24,000 bases of DNA from Nitrososphaerota archaeon (GTDB taxonomy: Archaea; Thermoproteota; Nitrososphaeria; Conexivisphaerales; DTJL01), in assembly GCA_021324115.1 (NCBI GenBank), contig JAJPJS010000022.1, positions 35,370-59,369 of the forward strand, given 5' to 3'. The position numbers were made by a program, and so were the translations under genes. Shown here in pieces: positions 7,113 to 24,000 of this stretch (its first letter is position 1; the number at the start of each line of letters is the position of its first letter). The notes beneath the pieces are model-generated. The model worked only from the letters and a program-made list of their open reading frames with translations. It had not been told where the DNA came from and searched no databases.

Positions 7113-7886
7113 ATGGAGCTGATCCCGGTAAGGTCGAAGGTGAAGAAGGGAAGGTTCTCAGTACTCAGAGAAATGGAAAGAATGTTAAAGCGGGCAGATG
7201 TGCAACTAATTCAGGACGACATCCTAGCTGTATCTGGGAAATTTCTCGCGATGGCAGAAGGCAGGGTCGTGAAGCTGAGCAGTGTTGTACCACTCAGGGA
7301 TGCGGTGGAGATGGCACGAAAATACTCCATGTCGCCCCAGATGGCGGAGGTTGTTCTCAGGGAATCAAGTGTTGTGCTGAAGGGGATGAATGGTTTTCTC
7401 CTGACGGTGAAGGATGGTGCCTTCTCACCCAATGCTGGGGTTGACAGGTCGAACATAGGTCACGGAATGGTGATTCTGCATCCATCCTTTCCCTCGGAGC
7501 AGGCCAGAAAGATAAGGGATTGGGGGTTTATCCGGTACGGAAAAAGAATAGGTGTTCTGGTGACCGATTCAAGACTTCAACCCTTGCGCAGAGGTACGGT
7601 CGGGATTGCGATAGGCGCGTCAGGAATTCCATCCACACTCGATGACAGGGGAAAGAAGGACCTTTTCGGTAACCTGATGAAGGTTACAAGAAGGGCTGTG
7701 GTGGATGACCTCGCTTCAGCGGCACAGCTACTGATGGGAGAAACGACGGAGGCGACTCCCGTAGTTGTGATAAGGGGTCATGGGTTACCGATAAGGGAGG
7801 ACTTTGATGGCCTGGACATATCGATCCCGTTGTCTGAATGCATTTACGTCAGGGGGCTCAGTGGATACCTGCAAGACGATTCTTGA
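7113..7886 (+). CDS. cofE: Coenzyme F420-0:L-glutamate ligase
   Basis: CofE-type blocks: SGKFLAMAEGR, NAGVDRSN, GVLVTDSRLQPLRRGTVGIAIGASGI, DDLASAAQLLMGETTEATPVVVIRG. Confidence 0.85.
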   Translation: MELIPVRSKVKKGRFSVLREMERMLKRADVQLIQDDILAVSGKFLAMAEGRVVKLSSVVPLRDAVEMARKYSMSPQMAEVVLRESSVVLKGMNGFLLTVKDGAFSPNAGVDRSNIGHGMVILHPSFPSEQARKIRDWGFIRYGKRIGVLVTDSRLQPLRRGTVGIAIGASGIPSTLDDRGKKDLFGNLMKVTRRAVVDDLASAAQLLMGETTEATPVVVIRGHGLPIREDFDGLDISIPLSECIYVRGLSGYLQDDS

Positions 7887-8631
7887 AGCCCTCTGCGTCT
7901 CTGTACATCTGGATTCCGTGAAAGGCGAGGTATGCCTTTTGCGGACTGGCCTTCTTCAGTCCCGTCTCTATTGATTCGTACTCAGACTCCCCGAATCCGG
8001 TCCTGCTGTATCTGTCTGTCCCAAACAGCCTTGAGTACAGCTTTTCATGCCTGTACCCGGGCAATCCCCTAGTGAGGTCCACCGAATGAAGAATGCCCAG
8101 CTCCTCCATGCACGAAATTGTGTCCTCCTCGAGTGGATTCCTGGTTTCAAGGACAACGGTGATGTTTTCGTCTTTAAATTGGGACCATATTTCTCTGGCG
8201 CCGGTGAGTATGGACCTGTTAACCATGAGAGAGGCAGAAGTCTGGAATACGATGCAGCCGGCTTCCAGTATCTTGCACACCCTCACCATATAATTTACCT
8301 CGGCCATTGCTTCGGGTGACGGATGAAGCATGTTTTCGTGAGTGACCGCCCTGTTGCACTTAACCGAAAATTCGAAATCCTGGCTCACCCTCTTTTTCCA
8401 CGACTCAACGAGACGAAAGGAGGGGTTGGAATAGAATGTGCTGTTCACCTCCACAAAGTTGAATCTTTTGGAGTATGAACTTAGCCTGTCACCCGTTACA
8501 TTCAGATACTGCCAGCCCCCGGTACCGATCCTGAGGTCCAATGATCTTATGAGCAACAGGAGATGTTGATACCCCTTTCGGCTGTTCGATACTCCGATCA
8601 AAATTGGCAGGTAACCCAAGTACGCTTTCAT
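7858..8631 (-). CDS. DUF72 (UPF0759) family protein, paralog A
   Basis: RIGTGGWQY...FNFVEVNSTFY, the DUF72 N-terminal signature. The first ~30 codons look like an artefactual extension. A TTG at 8541 would give MDLRIGTGGW, parallel to paralog B. Confidence 0.75.
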   Translation of the reverse strand: MKAYLGYLPILIGVSNSRKGYQHLLLLIRSLDLRIGTGGWQYLNVTGDRLSSYSKRFNFVEVNSTFYSNPSFRLVESWKKRVSQDFEFSVKCNRAVTHENMLHPSPEAMAEVNYMVRVCKILEAGCIVFQTSASLMVNRSILTGAREIWSQFKDENITVVLETRNPLEEDTISCMEELGILHSVDLTRGLPGYRHEKLYSRLFGTDRYSRTGFGESEYESIETGLKKASPQKAYLAFHGIQMYRDAEGFKNRLAGIH

Positions 8632-8678: not shown

Positions 8679-9506
8679 TTGAAGTACGTTAAGCTGATGA
8701 TGGGCACAAGTGGATGGAGCTATGATGAATGGGTCGGGCCATTCTATCCATCAAAGGAAACTCCAAAGCTGACCTACTACTCGGGAGTATTCAACACGGT
8801 GGAGGTGGACAGCAGCTTCTACGCTATGCCAAATCCAAAGGTTGTATTTGGTTGGGTAAAGCATACGCCCACGAACTTCAAATTCAGTCTGAAGCTTCCC
8901 AAAACTATCACCCATGATATGAAGCTGGTGGGGGATGGTGTCGAAGTGGAGCTCAGAAAATTTTTTGAAGTGGTTTCACCGCTTGTCTCTGCAAATAAAA
9001 TAGGAGTCGTTCTTGCGCAGCTTCCACCCAGCCTCAAACAGGACCTCGATCTTTTGGAAAGGTTCCTGAACCTGCTCCCGAAGGAAGGGGTCAGATTTGC
9101 GATTGAATTTAGACACCTATCCTGGTGGAACAGAGATACTTGGCGGGTGTTGAAGAAGGCGAATGTTGCGAACACTATAGTGGATGAACCCCTGCTGCCG
9201 CCCGAGCTCGTGGTTACTGCTCCTTTTGCTTATGTCAGGTGGCATGGGAGGGGGGAAAGGGTCTGGTACGACTACAGGTACTCCGAGAATGAAATTCGAA
9301 CCTGGGCAAAACAGCTCGGGAAAATCCGGTCAAGTGAGGTCTACGGGTACTGGAACAACCATTTCCATGCGAATGCGGTTATGAACTGCCTTGAGATGCT
9401 GGAAGCGGTGGGCGCGATAGGTCCCCACCAGAAGGATGTGCTACAGTCAATAAAACAAAACATGCGGCCCCGTAAGACCTTGTTTGATTTTCAGGGTTCA
9501 TCCTAG
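8679..9506 (+). CDS. DUF72 (UPF0759) family protein, paralog B
   Basis: MMGTSGWSYDEWVGPFYP...FNTVEVDSSFY...YVRWHGR, the DUF72 signature. The likely true start is ATG 8697 or 8700. Confidence 0.8.
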   Translation: MKYVKLMMGTSGWSYDEWVGPFYPSKETPKLTYYSGVFNTVEVDSSFYAMPNPKVVFGWVKHTPTNFKFSLKLPKTITHDMKLVGDGVEVELRKFFEVVSPLVSANKIGVVLAQLPPSLKQDLDLLERFLNLLPKEGVRFAIEFRHLSWWNRDTWRVLKKANVANTIVDEPLLPPELVVTAPFAYVRWHGRGERVWYDYRYSENEIRTWAKQLGKIRSSEVYGYWNNHFHANAVMNCLEMLEAVGAIGPHQKDVLQSIKQNMRPRKTLFDFQGSS

Positions 9507-19055: not shown

Positions 19056-20260
19056 AATCTGTCCGACCTTTTCTCTCTAGCAACCGCAACGAATACAAAA
19101 CCAAACAGTACTATAACTGCGCCAAAATAGAAGCCTCCAGCAAGTCCACCGGTGTAATCCGCCAGTACTCCCGTTATGAGCGGGGCCAGAATTGATGAAG
19201 ACATCGCAGCAACGTTCAGCAGCGAAAGGGCGCTTCCTATCTGTTCCTGCCCGATGAATTCCCCCACCCATGCGATCACTAGTGGGTCTAGGGTGAGCTT
19301 TCCAACCACGCCATAGGCGGCTATCGCGAGTATCACAGTTACCAGATTGGAGCCTATTGCCATGAGAAATATCGCGATCGAAGCAAGCGGAAGGATTGTC
19401 ATTGCGATTGCTTTCCTGCCCACTTTGTCTGAGACATGGCTTATGGCTATCGAGCTGGGTATCGCCACGGCAGAAAATATTGCGGTCGCTGCACCGCTGT
19501 AGAGAATGCCTAAACCCCTTGATTCCTGAAGATAGGTAGGGCCCCAGGTCAGAATTACCCAGTAGCCATATAGAGAACAGAACATCGCTGCACAGAGCAT
19601 CGCAAAACTTCTATTTTTGAGAAGTTTGATGTAAATGCTCCGCATCTCTGCACTTTTGCCCTCTGGATGGGGCGGTTCTTCCGTTGCCCTTTTCAGCGCA
19701 TAGGCAACTATCAAAGTCGGTACCGACAACAGAATCAGCATCATCTGCCAGCTGTCAAATAGCTTCAGCACGGGACCCGCCAAAAGAAGACCGGCGATCG
19801 TGCCGAACCCCATGCCTGAATTGATAAGGGAAGCTGTAAGTCCCCTTCTTTGGCTCGGAAGAACGCTTGATATCCTGTAGGCCGTGGGATAATACGCCCC
19901 AGCACCTGCTCCATGGAGGCCCATGAAAAGGACCAACAGAAGATAGCTGTATCCCAGAGCCCCTGCAGCCAGCAGTGAAAGGGCCGCGAGCAGAAAGAAG
20001 TAGAACATTATCCTTCTGTACCCCCACCGTTCTGCGGCAATGGTAGCAGGAATGGTAAAGCCAACGTACGCAAGAAAATAGATGGATACAACAACAGAAA
20101 CCGAAGCGAAAGATAAGCCAAACTGCTGGCGTATCAGGTTTAAAACCGGAGAGATGCTCAACCTGTCTGCGTATATCATAACCCAGCCTGAGCTGAGGGC
20201 GATTATGGGCGTGATTATGCTGCGCATTTCCTTGTTTCCTTCGCCAAAGGAAGCGAACAT
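19052..20260 (-). CDS. MFS transporter
   Basis: 402 aa and highly hydrophobic, with about 12 TM-like segments. The MFS motif-A-like loop is IAAERWGYRR. Confidence 0.85.
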   Translation of the reverse strand: MFASFGEGNKEMRSIITPIIALSSGWVMIYADRLSISPVLNLIRQQFGLSFASVSVVVSIYFLAYVGFTIPATIAAERWGYRRIMFYFFLLAALSLLAAGALGYSYLLLVLFMGLHGAGAGAYYPTAYRISSVLPSQRRGLTASLINSGMGFGTIAGLLLAGPVLKLFDSWQMMLILLSVPTLIVAYALKRATEEPPHPEGKSAEMRSIYIKLLKNRSFAMLCAAMFCSLYGYWVILTWGPTYLQESRGLGILYSGAATAIFSAVAIPSSIAISHVSDKVGRKAIAMTILPLASIAIFLMAIGSNLVTVILAIAAYGVVGKLTLDPLVIAWVGEFIGQEQIGSALSLLNVAAMSSSILAPLITGVLADYTGGLAGGFYFGAVIVLFGFVFVAVAREKRSDRF

Positions 20261-20372
20261 CTAGAAGAGGCCGCGGTAATGACTCTAAAGATGTTTTGGG
20301 TTGAAATCGAGTAGCAGGTTTAAAGAAGAAGTGCTGAGGCCTATAACATAATGATATAGAAATAGAAACAAA

Positions 20373-20655
20373 ATGGTAAGCTGGTTGGAAAGCGGTCCCC
20401 CAAATAAGAAACGAGTCCACTCGTGCGTTCGAATATTGAACCCAACTTCGGGTTCTGGATCTCACAGGCTCGTTTTGAAGGACAAAACGGAAGGCCGCGA
20501 CGTTCAATATCCATTCATAAAGCAGGGATGTAATAGACTGCAACATGTCTGGAGGTGGCTGTACGTACTTTGTTACATGCACAACGAGATGAGTGACAGA
20601 ATCGGGTTCAATGGACAACTGAACCTGATGGAGGTTGTCGCATAAGTTAACAACG
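20373..20655 (+). mobile_element. 3'-terminal remnant of an IS6-like insertion sequence (copy 1)
   Basis: 20473-20652 aligns by eye with 22366-22546 of copy 2, including an identical 25-nt run (20543-20567 = 22436-22460). It encodes ...KDKTEGRD..YP...HVWRWLYV.C.M.NEM, which matches the copy 2 transposase C-terminus. Upstream frames show RSNIE, which resembles KSVTE of copy 2. Confidence 0.6.
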
Positions 20656-20675
20656 CCGACCCGCGACAAGACAGG

Positions 20676-20683
20676 TATAAATA
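20676..20683 (+). promoter_or_regulatory. TATA box upstream of ATPase 1
   Basis: TATAAATA lies about 35-40 nt upstream of GTG 20718, immediately 5' of the tandem dyad repeats. Confidence 0.4.
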
Positions 20684-20720
20684 CTTCTGGGGGTAGAAGT
20701 AACTTCGGGGGGTAGAAGTG
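20683..20720 (+). repeat. 2 x 19-bp tandem repeat, each unit an internal dyad, ending in the ATPase 1 start codon
   Basis: The units are acttctgggggtagaagta and acttcggggggtagaagtg (17/19 identical). The arms are ACTTC(T)/(A)GAAGT. GTG 20718-20720 forms the last 3 nt of unit 2. Confidence 0.8.
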
Positions 20721-21803
20721 CTCTTCGATCCGTCACCGAAAGAGTCTAGGAAGGACTTCTTCGACAGGGAAAAGGAGATCGAGCAGCTGGAATCGCTGAA
20801 GTCGAGGGTTGTTCTCATACTGGGTCTAAGGAGGACGGGCAAGTCGTCGTTGGTGAAGATAGTGCTCAACGACCTCAACTTGCCATACGTCTACATCGAC
20901 CTGAGGAGGTTTGAAGAGATGCCCAATATGACTTACCGTGATCTCATCAGGGAGACAGAAAGAGAAGTAAACCGTTTGAAGTATAGGTACCCTGGCATCG
21001 TTAATTTCCTTAGAGGTCTGAAAGGTGTAGGGGTTATGGGAAACGAGGTTAGGTTTTCCTGGGGGAAGGACAGACTATCTTTCTCGGACCTGCTCGTTTC
21101 TTTAAACGACTGGGCCGAGGATAAGGTGCTGGTGGTGATAGATGAGGCTCAAGAGCTCGGGAAACTCAGAGGGGTCGACCTCCTTCCCTCCTTTGCCTAC
21201 TCCTACGACAATCTCAAGAAGGTTAAGATAGTCCTGACGGGGTCTGAAATGGGATTGCTCCATCGCTACCTAAAGACCAAGGACCCAGACAGCCCTCTGT
21301 TTGGGAGGGCAATGTCAGAGGTGCAACTGAAACCTTTTAGGAGGAATGAGGCGATCGATTTTCTAAAAAGGGGCTTCGAGGAGCAGCGGGTACAGTTTAG
21401 GGAATACGAGATGGTTTACGAAGAGATAGGCGGCATACCAGGTTGGCTAACCTACTTCGGCTTCACCTACACCGAGAGCAGAGACCTCGAAAGGTCGTTA
21501 AAGAAGACTCTGGACCATGCTAAGAAGCTGGTGTTGAAAGAGTTTGAGAACTTTCTCGTCGACAAGCAAACTGCGAGTAAGAGGTACTACACAGTGATGA
21601 GAGTCATGGCGGGGTGTGGTACGTGGAGCGAGGTAAAGAGGTCGCTCGAAGCCCAAGAGGGAGTCAGAATATCGGACTCTACATTGTACAATTATTTGAC
21701 TCACTTGGCGGATTCGTCGTGGATAGTTAAGGAAAAGGGTCTCTATTGCCCTACGGACCCTCTGATTAAAATTGCGTTCAAAGAACGGGCTCAGTTAACC
21801 TAA
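20718..21803 (+). CDS. Archaeal AAA ATPase (Arch_ATPase/PF01637-like) with C-terminal DUF234-type wHTH, paralog 1
   Basis: FFDREKEIEQL, Walker A GLRRTGKSSL, Walker B VLVVIDEAQ, then LTGSEMG...SPLFGRA and a C-terminal helical/wHTH region. GTG start. Confidence 0.85.
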   Translation: MLFDPSPKESRKDFFDREKEIEQLESLKSRVVLILGLRRTGKSSLVKIVLNDLNLPYVYIDLRRFEEMPNMTYRDLIRETEREVNRLKYRYPGIVNFLRGLKGVGVMGNEVRFSWGKDRLSFSDLLVSLNDWAEDKVLVVIDEAQELGKLRGVDLLPSFAYSYDNLKKVKIVLTGSEMGLLHRYLKTKDPDSPLFGRAMSEVQLKPFRRNEAIDFLKRGFEEQRVQFREYEMVYEEIGGIPGWLTYFGFTYTESRDLERSLKKTLDHAKKLVLKEFENFLVDKQTASKRYYTVMRVMAGCGTWSEVKRSLEAQEGVRISDSTLYNYLTHLADSSWIVKEKGLYCPTDPLIKIAFKERAQLT

Positions 21804-21808
21804 GCCCC

Positions 21809-21813
21809 TTTTT
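21809..21813 (+). terminator. Oligo-T run after ATPase 1
   Basis: TTTTT begins 6 nt after the stop codon. Confidence 0.3.
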
Positions 21814-21836
21814 GAGTCGGTTGTCTATCTGATTTC

Positions 21837-22550
21837 GCTCAATTACAAACACTGACGGGACGCATCCAATCCCTCATGGTGGTACTCAAAAGAGAAAGGA
21901 TGCGTCCCGAGGACATATTGTACGGTCTGGACCTGTACTGACAGGACCCGAGTTTAAAGCATGTGGCATACGACTTCGATAGACCCGATTGCTAAAAGAA
22001 GTCATGTAACAGTATGGAAGTGGGTACAGATACTTGGTAAGGACGCCGTAATCTGCAGATGCAGGGTAACCGCATTCCTGGTGGATGAGACATATGTTAG
22101 GATGAGTACAAACGAGGCGCGGGTGTGGATTGCCATAGAGCCTATTCACAGGTACATCCTTGGGGTGTACCTGTCAAGGTTTAGGAATATATGGTTGCTG
22201 AATTCTTTCTAAGAACTCTTGTCAGGATGTACGGAAGGCACATAGTGTACACAGATGAAGGTGTAGTATGGTATCCGGACGCATGTAATTTGCTAGGGTT
22301 GGAACACAGGATTCATACCCCATACGAGAAGAGCGTTACAGAAAGCGCGAACCAATCAATCAATCAATTTATGAAGGACAGGACGGAAGGCTTCGACGAT
22401 CATTATCCCTGCAGGAAGCATGGATGTGACCTGTCACATGTCTGGAGGTGGCTGTACGTATTCTGTTTCATGTACAACGAGATGATGAGGAATAGAATCA
22501 GGTTCAATTGACTACTGAACCTGTTGGAGGCGGTCACAAGTTAACAGAGC
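21837..22550 (+). mobile_element. IS6-like insertion sequence (copy 2), about 0.7 kb, with imperfect terminal inverted repeats and a decayed transposase
   Basis: The left end is GCTCAATTACAAACACTGACGGGACGCATCCAA. The reverse complement of the right end is GCTCTGTTAACTTGTGACCGCCTCCAA. The DDE-type transposase fragments lie between them. Confidence 0.55.
21900..22511 (+). pseudogene. IS6-family-like DDE transposase, broken by at least three frame shifts
   Basis: Four pieces are MRPEDILYGLDLY* (frame 0), LTGPEFKACGIRLR* (frame 2), IDPIAKRSHVTVWKWVQ...FLVDETYV...YLSRFRNI (frame 1), and VAEFFLRTL...IVYTDEGVVWYPDACNLLGLEHR...EKSVTES (frame 0). Candidate catalytic residues lie in the DETYV, YTDEG and KSVTE blocks. 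Confidence 0.65.
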
Positions 22551-22572
22551 CGTGCGATAGGAAGTAACGCTT

Positions 22573-22610
22573 AACTACCACGGTGGTAGTGAACTACCAC
22601 GGTGGTAGTA
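22573..22610 (+). repeat. 2 x 19-bp tandem repeat, each unit a 17-bp palindrome, abutting the ATPase 2 start codon
   Basis: The units are aactaccacggtggtagtg and aactaccacggtggtagta (18/19 identical). The arms are ACTACCAC/GTGGTAGT with a 1-nt centre. The last nt of unit 2 is the A of ATG 22610. Confidence 0.85.
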
Positions 22611-23671
22611 TGATCTTCTCACCGGAGCCAAAGAAGAGAATTGAAGACCTCTTTGGTAGAAATGACGAACTAAAAGAACTGGATAAGCTTGTTAGGAAGA
22701 ACAGAATTATTCTCGTAACAGGTATGAGGAGAATCGGAAAAACATCTCTTGTAAATGTGTATCTAAACAAATTCGTAAAGCAACGGTTTGCACTCGTTGA
22801 CGTAAGAACCTCTGGCAAATCATTCAATGGAATATTCCAAGTTTTCGATGATGTGTTACACCAGCTTGATAGTTGGATTAACATCAAGGATATGTTGAAG
22901 GGAGTCACGGGGGTAACTGTCTTTGGTTCTGGAATATCGTTAAGCTGGAAGGAAAATAGTAGGGCTAACTTGGGAGAAATCTTTGATACGATAAACAAGA
23001 CCGGAAAGAAGTTCCTCGTGGTTCTGGACGAGGCGCAGCGGCTCAGAGGAAACCTATCATACGTTATTCTTGACCTGCTTGCTCACTGCTACGACTACTG
23101 TGACAACATCAAGTTCATCATTACAGGCTCTGAAGCGGGAGTACTCCGAGATTTTATCAGAATAGATGATTCGCAATCGTCTCTCTTTGGAAGACATATT
23201 CCAGAGCTAAGGCTTGATGGTTTTAGCAGGGAAAAGTCCAGGGAATTTCTTATCAGGGGCTTTGGGGAGGCAGGGCTAAAATTCAAACAGGATGTTATCG
23301 AAAAATCCTTTGATTATCTTGACGGTGTTGCTGGCTGGCTCAACGAGTTTGGTCTAAGGTGTATCGAAAAGGGCACGGTTACAGAGAGTATTCTTTCAGA
23401 TGTCTTTGAAAATGCAGTAAAACTGGAGATCGAAGAAGTATCCAGGTTCTCAACCAATTATATTCTAGTGCTAGAAGCATTGGGACAGGGAAGAACAAGA
23501 TGGAGCAGAATAAGAAACTACTTGGAAGGTAAACTCCAGAGAACGGTAAACGATTCCGAGGTTCAAAGATATCTCGAGAAGATGATAAAGAGAGGATATG
23601 TAGAAAAGAGAAATGATGAATACCTCATACTAGACCCAGTTCTCATAAGGTATTTCTCAAAGGAAACATGA
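22610..23671 (+). CDS. Archaeal AAA ATPase (Arch_ATPase/PF01637-like) with C-terminal DUF234-type wHTH, paralog 2
   Basis: MIFSPEPKKRIEDLFGRNDELKEL aligns with the paralog 1 N-terminus. Walker A GMRRIGKTSL and Walker B FLVVLDEAQ, then ITGSEAG...SSLFGRH. The ORF-track start GTG 22583 lies inside the repeat, so ATG 22610 is preferred. Confidence 0.85.
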   Translation: MIFSPEPKKRIEDLFGRNDELKELDKLVRKNRIILVTGMRRIGKTSLVNVYLNKFVKQRFALVDVRTSGKSFNGIFQVFDDVLHQLDSWINIKDMLKGVTGVTVFGSGISLSWKENSRANLGEIFDTINKTGKKFLVVLDEAQRLRGNLSYVILDLLAHCYDYCDNIKFIITGSEAGVLRDFIRIDDSQSSLFGRHIPELRLDGFSREKSREFLIRGFGEAGLKFKQDVIEKSFDYLDGVAGWLNEFGLRCIEKGTVTESILSDVFENAVKLEIEEVSRFSTNYILVLEALGQGRTRWSRIRNYLEGKLQRTVNDSEVQRYLEKMIKRGYVEKRNDEYLILDPVLIRYFSKET

Positions 23672-23813
23672 TAAACACGATCATAGACGAACGCGGGCCA
23701 AGGTACTTTATCCTTGGGTTACAGGTTGTCGCTTAATTCCTTTAATCCATAACGTCATCTTATCTTGATTCAATCAATCATGAACGTAGTTAGGGTGTGG
23801 GCTCCGATGACGT

Positions 23814-24000
23814 TTGAGCACACACCGGAAAAGAGAAGGATACTGGAGAGTATACCATCTCACCCACACCCGTGAACGGGATGAACTGGTAAGAGATATA
23901 GTTACGCTTGTCAGGGAGAATGAACCTCCTCGTAGACAAAGGAGGACAAAGAGGGGAAGAAAGAAAGTCCATTCCTGGCAGAAGCTAATCTGCATCTGCC
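23814..24000 (+). CDS. Possible transposase N-terminus of a different IS, 3'-truncated by the window edge
   Basis: The frame is open from 23811 to the window end: ...RERDELVRDIVTLVRENEPPRRQRRTKRGRKKVHSWQKLICIC. The basic R/K patch followed by HSWxKL resembles N-termini of some archaeal IS transposases. There is no ATG; a TTG lies at 23814. The call is weak. Confidence 0.25.
   Translation, partial: MSTHRKREGYWRVYHLTHTRERDELVRDIVTLVRENEPPRRQRRTKRGRKKVHSWQKLICIC

What the first reader, a model, noticed from the sequence alone, without database searches (positions are those of the whole stretch)
22573..22612. Second 2 x 19-bp dyad repeat at ATPase 2, homologous in architecture to that of ATPase 1, with compensatory base changes preserving the dyad
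The units AACTACCACGGTGGTAGTG and AACTACCACGGTGGTAGTA (18/19 identical) are each a 17-bp palindrome, ACTACCAC-G-GTGGTAGT. They end on the A of ATG 22610, and GGTGGT acts as an SD-like element. The period (19 bp), copy number (2) and position abutting the start codon all equal those at ATPase 1. The units also share a core: ACT.C ... GG.GGTAG in both.

Comparing arm positions between the loci, pair 4 changes from T:A to A:T and pair 6 from T:A to C:G. Both arms changed together, so symmetry is retained while the sequence diverged. Such covariation indicates selection on the dyad itself, either as a dimer-binding site that co-evolves with its own wHTH protein or as an RNA or DNA hairpin. I see no clear TATA box between the IS end (22550) and the repeat, so transcription may read out of the IS.
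Basis: partly seen in the sequence, partly recalled or inferred. Interest (0 to 1): 0.7.

Follow-up and report, generated by a model that had tools for sequence, protein, structure and literature searches.

The report
Private self-operator of an archaeal ATPase
The two 19-bp palindromic repeats in front of this archaeal ATPase gene are one copy of a promoter-embedded DNA site found before nearly every gene of this family, and its sequence changes in step with the DNA-reading helix of the protein it precedes, so each ATPase most likely binds and controls its own gene.

Summary
Positions 22573-22610 hold two 19-bp units, each an 8+1+8 palindrome, ending on the A of ATG 22610. ATPase 1 has the same layout at 20683-20720.

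It is not a local oddity. About 65 of 80 homologous loci, plus 7 further loci, carry two 18-20-bp dyads in the same place. The loci come from many archaeal phyla and, by MAG label, from Thermotogota and Caldisericota. The dyads sit directly after a BRE/TATA-like box and end within 2 nt of the start codon. There are 32 different arm sequences, and complementarity is kept.

All four half-sites covary with each other, across units as well as within them. That fits four equivalent protein sites better than one RNA fold. Half-site bases track residues of the protein's own winged-helix recognition helix:
- D315 goes with C at half-site position 2 (35/35 loci).
- K or N at 315 goes with G (26/27).
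- R320 goes with C at position 6 (35/41).
- The position-2 rule held in 7/7 loci not used to derive it.

The best reading is an autoregulatory operator lying between the TATA box and the start codon, with the G-rich centre of unit 2 doubling as the ribosome-binding site. Binding itself is untested. No Rfam family matches, and I found no published description.

IS-driven transcription is not needed. The wHTH domain is PF21100, not DUF234.

The parts
22567..22575 (+). Predicted weak TATA-like box (ACGCTTAAC) of ATPase 2, overlapping the first bases of unit 1
   Evidence: The family-wide T/A box sits at positions -5..-1 before unit 1, preceded by an A-rich BRE-like stretch. Orthologues L005 and L006 have GCGTTTAA and GTGTTTAA at the same place.
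22573..22591 (+). Dyad unit 1 of ATPase 2. Half-sites are ACTACCAC 22574-22581 and GTGGTAGT 22583-22590. Predicted to lie between the TATA box and the transcription start.
   Evidence: Position relative to the TATA box.
22592..22610 (+). Dyad unit 2 of ATPase 2. Half-sites are 22593-22600 and 22602-22609. The centre and 3' arm, GGTGGT, fit the ribosome-binding consensus. The unit ends on the A of the ATG.
   Evidence: GGTGGT fits the T. kodakarensis RBS consensus GGDGRD (PMC4247193). The centre of unit 2 is G-rich in 58/65 loci and never C-rich.
22610..23671 (+). ATPase 2: AAA+ ATPase (PF01637) with a C-terminal winged helix (PF21100), 353 aa
   Evidence: Pfam. AlphaFold pLDDT 92.9. PDB relatives 2QEN and 2FNA.
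23552..23590 (+). Codons for the recognition helix (residues 315-327, DSEVQRYLEKMIK) of the winged helix of ATPase 2
   Evidence: The AlphaFold secondary structure gives helix H315-327 followed by wing strands E331-334 and E337-340. D315, S316, E317 and R320 carry the strongest association with half-site bases.
20676..20682 (+). TATA box (TATAAAT) of ATPase 1
   Evidence: It ends 35 nt before GTG 20718. Leaderless genes of the same window have TATA boxes ending 21-23 nt before their start codons.
20683..20720 (+). The two dyad units of ATPase 1: ACTTCTGGGGGTAGAAGTA and ACTTCGGGGGGTAGAAGTG. The GTG start codon is the last 3 nt.
20718..21803 (+). ATPase 1, a paralogue of ATPase 2 (31% identity), PF01637 + PF21100. 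Recognition helix begins SDSTLYN.
21961..22551 (+). Degenerate IS6-like element. It has frameshifted transposase ORFs at 21961-22212 and 22191-22511, and a right end ...TCACAAGTTAACAGAGCC. It is context only, not part of the operator.
   Evidence: NCBIfam IS6 transposase hits at E 2e-6 and 1e-4, matching profile positions 38-108 and 110-199, both below the curated cut-off. Right end.
20406..20657 (+). Short remnant of the same IS6-like 3' end upstream of ATPase 1. DNA is 80-89% identical to 22369-22552.

Best explanation
The 2 x 19-bp dyads are a DNA operator made of four equivalent 6-7-bp half-sites (here ACTACCA), alternating in orientation.

The operator fills the space from the TATA box to the start codon of the ATPase gene. 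The gene's own product, an AAA+ ATPase with a C-terminal winged helix, reads the half-sites with the N-terminal residues of its recognition helix.

Occupancy of the stretch between the TATA box and the transcription start, and of the first ~12 transcribed bases, should block RNA polymerase recruitment or promoter opening. That would make the gene negatively autoregulated.

The G-rich centre of unit 2 doubles as the Shine-Dalgarno-like element of a short leader of about 10-12 nt. This explains why it is strand-fixed while the centre of unit 1 is free to flip.

Each paralogue has its own half-site sequence, so paralogues in one genome do not cross-talk.

What is shown:
- the architecture and its conservation;
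- the covariation of all four half-sites;
- the association between helix residues and half-site bases.

What is inferred:
- physical binding;
- the position of the transcription start;
- the sign of regulation;
- any role of ATP.
For: (1) Conservation. About 65 of 80 homologous loci from Thermoproteota, Thermococci, Methanomethylicia, Bathyarchaeia, Nitrososphaeria, Marsarchaeota and Brockarchaeota have two 18-20-bp dyads ending -2 to +2 nt from the start codon. Seven extra loci, including P. abyssi, F. placidus and S. shibatae, have them too.

(2) Specificity. A strict scan of 448 kb finds the motif only at starts of this gene family, including one unlisted paralogue at L045:3181. It finds none in shuffles.

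(3) Promoter geometry. A T/A box with an A-rich BRE-like stretch directly abuts unit 1. In this window the TATA boxes of leaderless genes end 21-23 nt before their start codons, whereas that of ATPase 1 ends 35 nt before its start. In T. kodakarensis the TATA box lies a median 23 bp upstream of the transcription start (PMC4247193). Unit 1 and most of the 5' arm of unit 2 should therefore be untranscribed.

(4) Four equivalent sites.
- Arm identity between unit 1 and unit 2 is 0.86 within a locus and 0.53 between loci.
- The mutually exclusive cross-unit plus junction pairing covaries at least as well as the within-unit hairpins: 89.4% paired and score 0.615, against 83.5% and 0.523.

(5) Unit 1 shows no sense-strand G:U bias (17 G:U against 19 A:C). 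Its centre is C-rich (flipped) in 7 loci and mixed in 14. The centre of unit 2 is never C-rich.

(6) Protein-DNA association.
- Residue 315 is the first residue of the recognition helix in the AlphaFold model.
- D at 315 goes with C at half-site position 2 in 35/35 loci, K with G in 12/12 and N with G in 14/15.
- Presence or absence of D predicts C versus non-C in 72/76 loci. The best residue elsewhere in the protein reaches 60/76.
- R320 goes with C at position 6 in 35/41 loci, and N320 with T or A in 25/25.
- Parsimony on a tree built from the ATPase domain alone needs 5-8 changes of these residues.
- Out of sample, the residue-315 rule was right in 7/7 loci and the R320 rule in 2/3.

(7) Paralogues that share a genome have different half-sites: W1/W2, L006/L010, L025/L042, L037/L068 and the two genes of L045.

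(8) Six homologues on contigs labelled Thermotogota or Caldisericota keep 19-bp-spaced dyads, placed after a -10-like TATAAT and before a separate AGGAGG.
Against: No binding, footprint or transcription-start data exist for any member that I could reach.

The residue-base correlations are confounded by phylogeny. Only about 5-8 independent changes underlie them, and the rules for positions 4 and 5 failed in some out-of-sample loci.

Unit 2 does show a sense-strand G:U excess (24 against 6). That would also fit an RNA hairpin, although pressure for a G-rich ribosome-binding site could produce it.

Tandem repeats can be homogenised by slippage or gene conversion without selection.

The transcription start is inferred from typical TATA spacing, not measured.

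Repression rather than activation, or mere loading, is inferred only from the position of the site.
Confidence: 0.68

Rival explanations
1. RNA-level element. The units form hairpins in the 5' leader that sequester or present the Shine-Dalgarno-like G-run and the start codon. They would control translation or mRNA stability, with or without a bound protein.
For: Unit 2 abuts the start codon and contains the SD-like G-run. Unit 2 shows a sense-strand G:U excess (24 against 6). The two-unit RNA of ATPase 2 folds at -26 kcal/mol with z = -4.6. Covariation of the arms is strong.
Against: The TATA box abuts unit 1, so unit 1 and most of the 5' arm of unit 2 are predicted to be untranscribed.

Unit 1 has no G:U bias (17 against 19), and its loop flips to CCCC in some loci.

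Mutually exclusive pairings covary equally well.

The ATPase 2 unit has a 1-nt centre. When unit 2 is folded on its own, it does not adopt the unit hairpin.

An RNA hairpin gives no reason for the arms to track recognition-helix residues, or for unit 1 to equal unit 2. There is no Rfam match.
Confidence: 0.12
2. The dyads are the specific loading or assembly site for the ATPase's real job, in the way Orc1/Cdc6 assembles at origin recognition boxes. The job might be DNA remodelling, or sensing as part of a defence or conflict system. Autoregulation would then be a by-product of where the site lies.
For: After 2FNA and 2QEN, the closest characterised structures are Orc1/Cdc6 proteins bound to origin DNA (2QBY, 1FNN, 2V1U). 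There are weak PADLOC hits to the candidate defence families PDC-S27 and PDC-S01. The family has many paralogues, variable genomic contexts and no conserved partner gene.
Against: In all loci the site is locked to the TATA box and the start codon of the gene itself, which is what a regulatory site needs and a loading site does not. No second copy of the operator occurs in the 24-kb window. Whole genomes could not be scanned.
Confidence: 0.12
3. The repeats belong to mobile-element biology. They would be ends or target sites of the adjacent IS6-like element, or a MITE-like palindrome, with expression driven out of the IS.
For: IS6-like right ends lie 59-73 nt upstream of both ATPase starts. AAGTTAAC recurs upstream in L075 and L077.
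Against: None of the 80 other loci has an IS6 transposase nearby, yet nearly all have the dyads. The IS copies are 80-89% identical while the dyads and ATPases are deeply diverged (31% protein identity). The dyads are anchored to the TATA box and the start codon, not to the IS end.
Confidence: 0.03
4. An operator for a different, shared trans-acting regulator rather than for the gene's own product.
For: Palindromic operators downstream of the TATA box are the usual format for archaeal repressors in general.
Against: There are 32 distinct arm sequences. Paralogues in the same genome differ. The residue that best predicts half-site position 2 anywhere in the protein lies in the encoded protein's own recognition helix.
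Confidence: 0.05

Closest known systems
Archaeal autoregulated repressors with palindromic operators downstream of the TATA box (for example Phr, LrpA, MDR1 and the Lrs14 type; named from general knowledge)
   Same: A dyad-symmetric site lies between or over the TATA box and the transcription start of the regulator's own gene. It is read by a (winged) helix-turn-helix. The expected mechanism is a block of RNA polymerase recruitment.
   Different: Here the regulator is a ~355-aa AAA+ ATPase, not a small transcription factor. The site is always two tandem 19-bp dyads (four half-sites) fused to the ribosome-binding site and start codon. It is conserved as an architecture across many phyla, while its sequence is private to each paralogue.
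Orc1/Cdc6 initiators and origin recognition boxes (PDB 2QBY, 2V1U)
   Same: An AAA+ module plus a C-terminal winged helix. These are the nearest characterised structural relatives after 2FNA and 2QEN. They recognise dyad-containing DNA elements in a sequence-specific way.
   Different: The proteins here are not sequence members. TIGR02928 scores 12.8 bits against a cut-off of 181. The sites lie in the protein's own promoter, not at a replication origin. Half-site specificity is diversified among many paralogues.
SSO1545 (PDB 2FNA) and PABY2304 (PDB 2QEN), archaeal PF01637 ATPases of unknown function
   Same: Same protein family: E 8e-44 and 4e-47 by sequence, TM-score 0.81-0.85. A P. abyssi family member (P0042/P0043, locus L129) carries ACTACC dyads like those of ATPase 2. 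I did not establish whether it is the 2QEN protein.
   Different: In the library I could search, no function, DNA target or upstream motif is reported for these structures.
Promoter-embedded iterons bound by the product of the operon (for example parC/ParR of type II partition systems; from general knowledge)
   Same: Tandem repeats at about 10-bp phasing overlap the promoter. They serve as the binding site of a protein encoded immediately downstream, which gives autoregulation.
   Different: These genes have no partition partner and are chromosomal multi-copy paralogues. There are only two units, and the units are dyads rather than direct iterons.

Membership tests
PF01637 (ATPase_2) + PF21100 (MCM_C-type winged helix) archaeal AAA+ ATPases | Pfam domain hits above the gathering score | tested here: met
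   ATPase 2 scores 73.2 bits on PF01637 (cut-off 33.2) and 29.4 bits on PF21100 (cut-off 27). ATPase 1 scores 76 and 72.4 bits.
PF01637 (ATPase_2) + PF21100 (MCM_C-type winged helix) archaeal AAA+ ATPases | Fold equal to the solved family members 2FNA and 2QEN | tested here: met
   phmmer gives E 8e-44 and 4e-47. Foldseek gives TM-scores of 0.85 and 0.81. The model has pLDDT 92.9.
   DUF234 was not among the Pfam hits at E <= 0.01 for either protein. The C-terminal domain matches PF21100.
Autoregulatory operator of an archaeal promoter (a kind, not a homology family) | The site lies between or over the TATA box and the transcription start of the regulator's own gene | tested here: met
   A T/A box abuts unit 1 in 65 loci. 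The TATA-to-start spacing was calibrated on leaderless genes of the same window and on PMC4247193. The transcription start itself is inferred.
Autoregulatory operator of an archaeal promoter (a kind, not a homology family) | The site sequence co-varies with the DNA-reading residues of the encoded protein | tested here: met
   D315 goes with C2 in 35/35 loci, K or N with G in 26/27, and R320 with C6 in 35/41. D315 is the best predictor in the whole protein (72/76 against 60/76). The position-2 rule held in 7/7 out-of-sample loci.
Autoregulatory operator of an archaeal promoter (a kind, not a homology family) | The protein physically binds the site and changes transcription | not testable with these tools
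   This needs EMSA or footprinting and in vitro transcription.
Orc1/Cdc6 initiator with origin recognition box | Sequence membership of the orc1/cdc6 family | tested here: not met
   TIGR02928 scores 12.8 bits against a cut-off of 181.3. The similarity is structural only, with TM-score about 0.5.
Orc1/Cdc6 initiator with origin recognition box | The site lies at a replication origin | not tested
   No origin analysis was done. The site recurs at every paralogue's promoter, which argues against an origin role.
Structured cis-regulatory RNA (any Rfam family) | A covariance-model match | tested here: not met
   There is no match at the repeats even at E <= 10 across 20000-24000.
Structured cis-regulatory RNA (any Rfam family) | One specific secondary structure is supported over alternatives, with sense-strand G:U tolerance | tested here: inconclusive
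   Two mutually exclusive pairings covary equally well. A G:U bias is present in unit 2 (24 against 6) but absent in unit 1 (17 against 19).
IS6-family insertion sequence (the element upstream) | An IS6 DDE transposase and terminal inverted repeats | tested here: inconclusive
   NCBIfam IS6 hits score 21.9-27.4 bits against a cut-off of 125 and cover profile positions 38-199 in two frames. Only the right end was found, with no matching left repeat. It is a degenerate remnant.
Shine-Dalgarno element | A match to an archaeal RBS consensus at suitable spacing from the start codon | tested here: met
   GGTGGT lies at -9..-4 in ATPase 2 and GGGGGT lies at -10..-5 in ATPase 1. Both fit GGDGRD (PMC4247193). 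The 16S 3' end of this organism was not available.

The most novel reading that the evidence does not exclude
Members of the PF01637-winged-helix ATPase family form self-contained 'reader plus private operator' modules. Each would be a nucleotide-switched DNA binder whose only high-affinity target is its own promoter. The modules would have diversified into dozens of orthogonal specificities by a simple helix code (position 1: D for C, K or N for G; position 6: R for C:G, N for T:A). They would also move between genomes and even between domains, from Archaea to Thermotogota. Such modules could act as autonomous sensors, for example of invading DNA or nucleotide state as in STAND or defence ATPases, rather than as conventional regulators of other genes.
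Probability: 0.25. Interest if true: 0.8.

Novelty: new variant of a known kind. Interest (0 to 1): 0.66.

Why it matters
PF01637 ATPases are among the most expanded uncharacterised gene families in archaeal genomes. Two crystal structures exist, but no function or DNA target is known.

This analysis gives the family a concrete, testable molecular activity: sequence-specific binding to a defined 38-bp site in the protein's own promoter.

It also offers a natural library of more than 30 matched pairs of winged helix and operator. The residue-base relationships look interpretable, which is useful for studying recognition codes, paralogue insulation and orthogonal parts for archaeal synthetic biology.

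Finally, it flags systematic start-codon mis-annotation in the family.

Tried and rejected
- Rfam scan of 20000-24000 at E <= 10 found nothing at the repeats.
- A metagenome-wide scan for the exact 17-mer was meant to find other targets in the same organism. It returned 43 unrelated chance hits, and the two double hits lie in a coding peptide repeat (L108). The organism's own contig was not returned.
- I looked for experimental transcription starts.
  - Wurtzel 2010 is not held.
  - The T. kodakarensis table of transcription starts is held, but no KOD1 family member appeared among the 120 listed hits.
  - The P. abyssi paper has no held supplement.
- A viral-contig scan found no relatives.
- A search for a conserved neighbouring gene found none beyond the synteny of close orthologues.
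- A search for the left end of the IS6 element found none.
- Aligning the AAGTTAAC-containing upstream regions of L042, L075 and L077 with the IS ends showed no homology beyond the short motif.
- Five literature searches found no description of the motif.
- Rejected: simple local duplication, IS-end or MITE origin, and a shared global regulator (see the rival explanations).
Full report
**1. The observation**

Positions 22573-22612 read AACTACCACGGTGGTAGTG AACTACCACGGTGGTAGTA TG. Tandem Repeats Finder reports a period-19 array at 22573-22609 (100% match, score 74) and a second at 20683-20719 (score 67).

The 17-mer palindrome ACTACCAC-G-GTGGTAGT occurs only at these two positions in the window. 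With up to 3 mismatches, 0 matches are expected in shuffles. The ATG at 22610 is the start codon. The N-terminus MIFSPEPK aligns with (V)LFDPSPK of the upstream paralogue, whose GTG start at 20718 forms the last 3 nt of its own second unit. The 'shared core GG.GGTAG' is an out-of-register coincidence.

**2. The genes**

Both ORFs are PF01637 AAA+ ATPases with a C-terminal PF21100 (MCM_C-type) winged helix. DUF234 was not among the Pfam hits at E <= 0.01. They are 31% identical to each other. They belong with the structural-genomics proteins 2QEN and 2FNA.

An AlphaFold model (pLDDT 92.9) places the winged helix at H282-292, H298-309, recognition helix H315-327 and wing 331-340. After 2FNA and 2QEN, the closest solved structures are Orc1/Cdc6 proteins on origin DNA.

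Upstream of both genes lie remnants of one IS6-like element, 80-89% identical in DNA. The NCBIfam IS6 hits are weak. These remnants are far younger than the ATPase duplication.

**3. Family survey**

A genome-collection scan with an alignment of relatives returned 80 loci from many archaeal phyla, plus contigs labelled Thermotogota or Caldisericota. Printing the 90 nt before each start shows two tandem dyads of 19 bp (sometimes 18 or 20) abutting the start codon in nearly all archaeal loci.
- Dyad centres lie at about -29, -19.5 and -10. That gives four half-sites of alternating orientation.
- The 3' edge of unit 2 lies -2 to +2 nt from the start codon in all 65 clean loci. There are 32 different 7-nt arms.
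- A strict two-dyad detector run over 448 kb hits only the starts of this family. This includes a second, previously unlisted paralogue in L045 and four bacterial-type loci where a separate AGGAGG follows the dyads. It hits nothing in shuffled sequence.
- Seven more loci fetched later, including P. abyssi, F. placidus, P. kukulkanii, Vulcanisaeta and S. shibatae, also carry the dyads.

**4. Covariation**

On 33 gapless 38-mers, the within-unit pairing gives 83.5% standard pairs against 65.5% in shuffles (0/500 shuffles reach it). The covariation score is 0.523 against 0.218, and 0.03-0.19 for slid partners. Positions 2, 4, 5 and 6 of the arms each show two to four Watson-Crick pair types.

The mutually exclusive pairing joins the 5' arm of unit 1 to the 3' arm of unit 2, and adds the junction dyad. 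It covaries even better: 89.4% paired, score 0.615, and the junction dyad is 92.6% paired. Arm identity between unit 1 and unit 2 is 0.86 within loci and 0.53 between loci. The data therefore describe four equivalent half-sites, not one particular fold.

**5. DNA or RNA?**

A conserved T/A box (TTTAWA or CTTAA), preceded by an A-rich stretch, directly abuts unit 1.

Within this window, the TATA boxes of leaderless housekeeping genes end 21-23 nt before their start codons. The ATPase 1 TATAAAT ends 35 nt before GTG. In T. kodakarensis the TATA box lies a median 23 bp upstream of the transcription start, and the RBS consensus is GGDGRD (PMC4247193).

The predicted transcription start therefore falls at the G-run in the centre of unit 2. 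Unit 1 and most of the 5' arm of unit 2 would be untranscribed, and the leader would be about 11-12 nt, beginning with the SD-like G-run. GGTGGT and GGGGGT both fit GGDGRD.

Other evidence points the same way:
- Unit 1 has no sense-strand G:U bias (17 G:U against 19 A:C).
- The centre of unit 1 is C-rich in 7 loci and mixed in 14. The centre of unit 2 is G-rich in 58/65 loci and never C-rich.
- Unit 2 does show a G:U excess (24 against 6). I attribute this to pressure for a G-rich RBS, but it keeps an RNA contribution open.
- The ATPase 2 unit has a 1-nt centre. Folded alone, it does not adopt the unit hairpin.
- Rfam has no match.

**6. Who reads the site?**

Sorting loci by the recognition-helix sequence sorts them by half-site as well.
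- Residue 315, the first residue of the helix, is D in all 35 loci with ACT half-sites, K in 12/12 loci with GGT or AGT, and N in 14/15 loci with a G at position 2.
- Presence or absence of D predicts C versus non-C at half-site position 2 in 72/76 loci. The best residue anywhere else in the protein reaches 60/76.
- Residue 320 (helix position 6) is R with C at half-site position 6 in 35/41 loci. It is N with T or A in 25/25 loci.
- D315, S316 and R320 are the top mutual-information columns for half-site positions 2, 4 and 6. Six of the top 20 columns fall in residues 313-340, a region that makes up 24 of the 337 columns.
- Parsimony on a tree built from the ATPase domain alone needs 5-8 changes of these residues.
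- In seven loci not used to derive the rules, residue 315 predicted position 2 correctly in 7/7. R320 predicted position 6 correctly in 2/3. The rules for positions 4 and 5 were less reliable.

The pairings (Asp with C, Lys or Asn with G, Arg with a C:G pair, Asn with T:A) are chemically conventional; this is my own knowledge. The differences between ATPase 1 (SDSTLYN, ACTTCT) and ATPase 2 (NDSEVQR, ACTACC) follow these trends. Paralogues that share a genome always differ in half-site.

**7. Mechanism proposed**

The element is an autogenous operator. The ATPase's winged helices occupy four half-sites between the TATA box and the start codon, which should block RNA polymerase recruitment or promoter opening. 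The centre of unit 2 serves in addition as the ribosome-binding site.

Binding, stoichiometry, ATP dependence and the sign of regulation are inferred. My confidence is about 0.68. The rivals are listed with their evidence in the rival explanations: an RNA hairpin, a loading site for another function, an IS-related element and a shared regulator.

**8.

Read-out from the IS is unnecessary. ATPase 2 keeps the family-typical T/A box (CGCTTAAC, against GCGTTTAA in the Marsarchaeota orthologues). The IS end lies upstream of it.

**9. Novelty**

Five full-text searches found no description of this motif or of a DNA target for the family. The search terms included PF01637, COG1672, SSO1545, PABY2304, 2FNA, 2QEN and arCOG identifiers.

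The kind of mechanism, autoregulation through a promoter operator, is ordinary. Three things appear to be new:
- the family, which consists of AAA+ ATPases with Orc1/Cdc6-like architecture;
- the fixed two-dyad format fused to the RBS and start codon;
- the diversification of operator specificity, private to each paralogue and shared in format across many phyla.

Noticed in passing
window 20406-20657 and 21961-22551: Both ATPase genes are preceded by the 3' end of the same IS6-like element, which ends 59-61 nt before each start codon (AAGTTAAC motif at -71 and -73) (...AAGTTAACAACGCC and ...AAGTTAACAGAGCC). The two ends are in direct orientation and flank ATPase 1. Copy 2 has frameshifted transposase ORFs, and copy 1 is a ~250-bp stub. 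The near-identical insertion distance upstream of two paralogues that share only 31% identity is unexplained. It could reflect target preference for these promoters or an IS26-like translocatable-unit history.
   Followed up: partly
L075 at about -75, L077 at -97 and -69, L042 at -69, L013 at -82 (all relative to the ATPase start): The 8-mer AAGTTAAC (or GTTAAC) recurs 69-97 nt upstream of distant homologues that have no IS6 transposase nearby. L077 has two copies 28 nt apart that resemble the IS ends in the window. Alignment shows no homology beyond the short motif, so this may be chance.
   Followed up: partly
window, upstream of 7059(-), 7113(+), 11718(+), 18222(+), 9547(+): Housekeeping genes in the window have TATA-like boxes ending 21-23 nt before the start codon and no SD-like sequence. 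They are probably leaderless mRNAs. The two ATPase genes are the exceptions, with a leader of about 11-12 nt.
   Followed up: partly
L006, L007-L009, L011, L023, L031, L033, L035, L038, L041, L044, L081 (start region); L134:301; L129:1501 against 1570: Many family members have a non-canonical codon (ATT, ATA, ATC, ACG or CTG) at the position aligned to Met1. At least the checked cases (L006, L008, L033, L134) also have an in-frame GTG 9 nt upstream, inside unit 2 (GGGGTG). The S. shibatae annotation uses that GTG. The old P. abyssi annotation starts 69 nt too far upstream (387 aa against 364 aa). Start-codon annotation in this family is unreliable.
   Followed up: partly
L020, L023, L032, L044, L049, L058, L071, L072, L077, L130, L134 (unit 1): In some loci the centre of unit 1 is the complement (CCCC or ACCC) of the centre of unit 2 (GGGG). 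The two units then form one long inverted repeat rather than a direct repeat.
   Followed up: yes
L026, L030, L051, L064, L080, L084: Homologues on contigs labelled Thermotogota or Caldisericota keep 19-bp-spaced dyads (for example ACTCAA-N6-TTGAGT). Here the dyads are placed just after a -10-like TATAAT and are followed by a separate AGGAGG. The module therefore looks transferred between domains, with its operator re-fitted to a bacterial promoter. These are MAG labels and were not verified.
   Followed up: partly
window 20718-21803 and 22610-23671: Both proteins give moderate PADLOC hits to the candidate phage-defence families PDC-S27 (E about 1e-12, nearly full length) and PDC-S01. No conserved neighbouring gene was found, and no relatives were found in IMG/VR.
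   Followed up: partly
L045:3181-3221: A second, unlisted ATPase paralogue lies 1.3 kb downstream of the first. It has its own ACTAAC dyads (period 20), and its GTG start codon is formed by the end of unit 2, as in ATPase 1 of the window.
   Followed up: yes
L108:3459-3520: The exact 17-mer of ATPase 2 occurs twice, 45 nt apart, inside a 377-aa ORF of an unrelated metagenome contig. There it encodes a repeated peptide, VVVTDYHGGS. This is a chance match to the palindrome.
   Followed up: yes
window 7858-8631(-) and 8679-9506(+): Two divergently oriented DUF72 paralogues give the longest inverted repeat in the window (8432-8475 with 8778-8821, 75% complementary). This simply reflects the gene duplication.
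   Followed up: no
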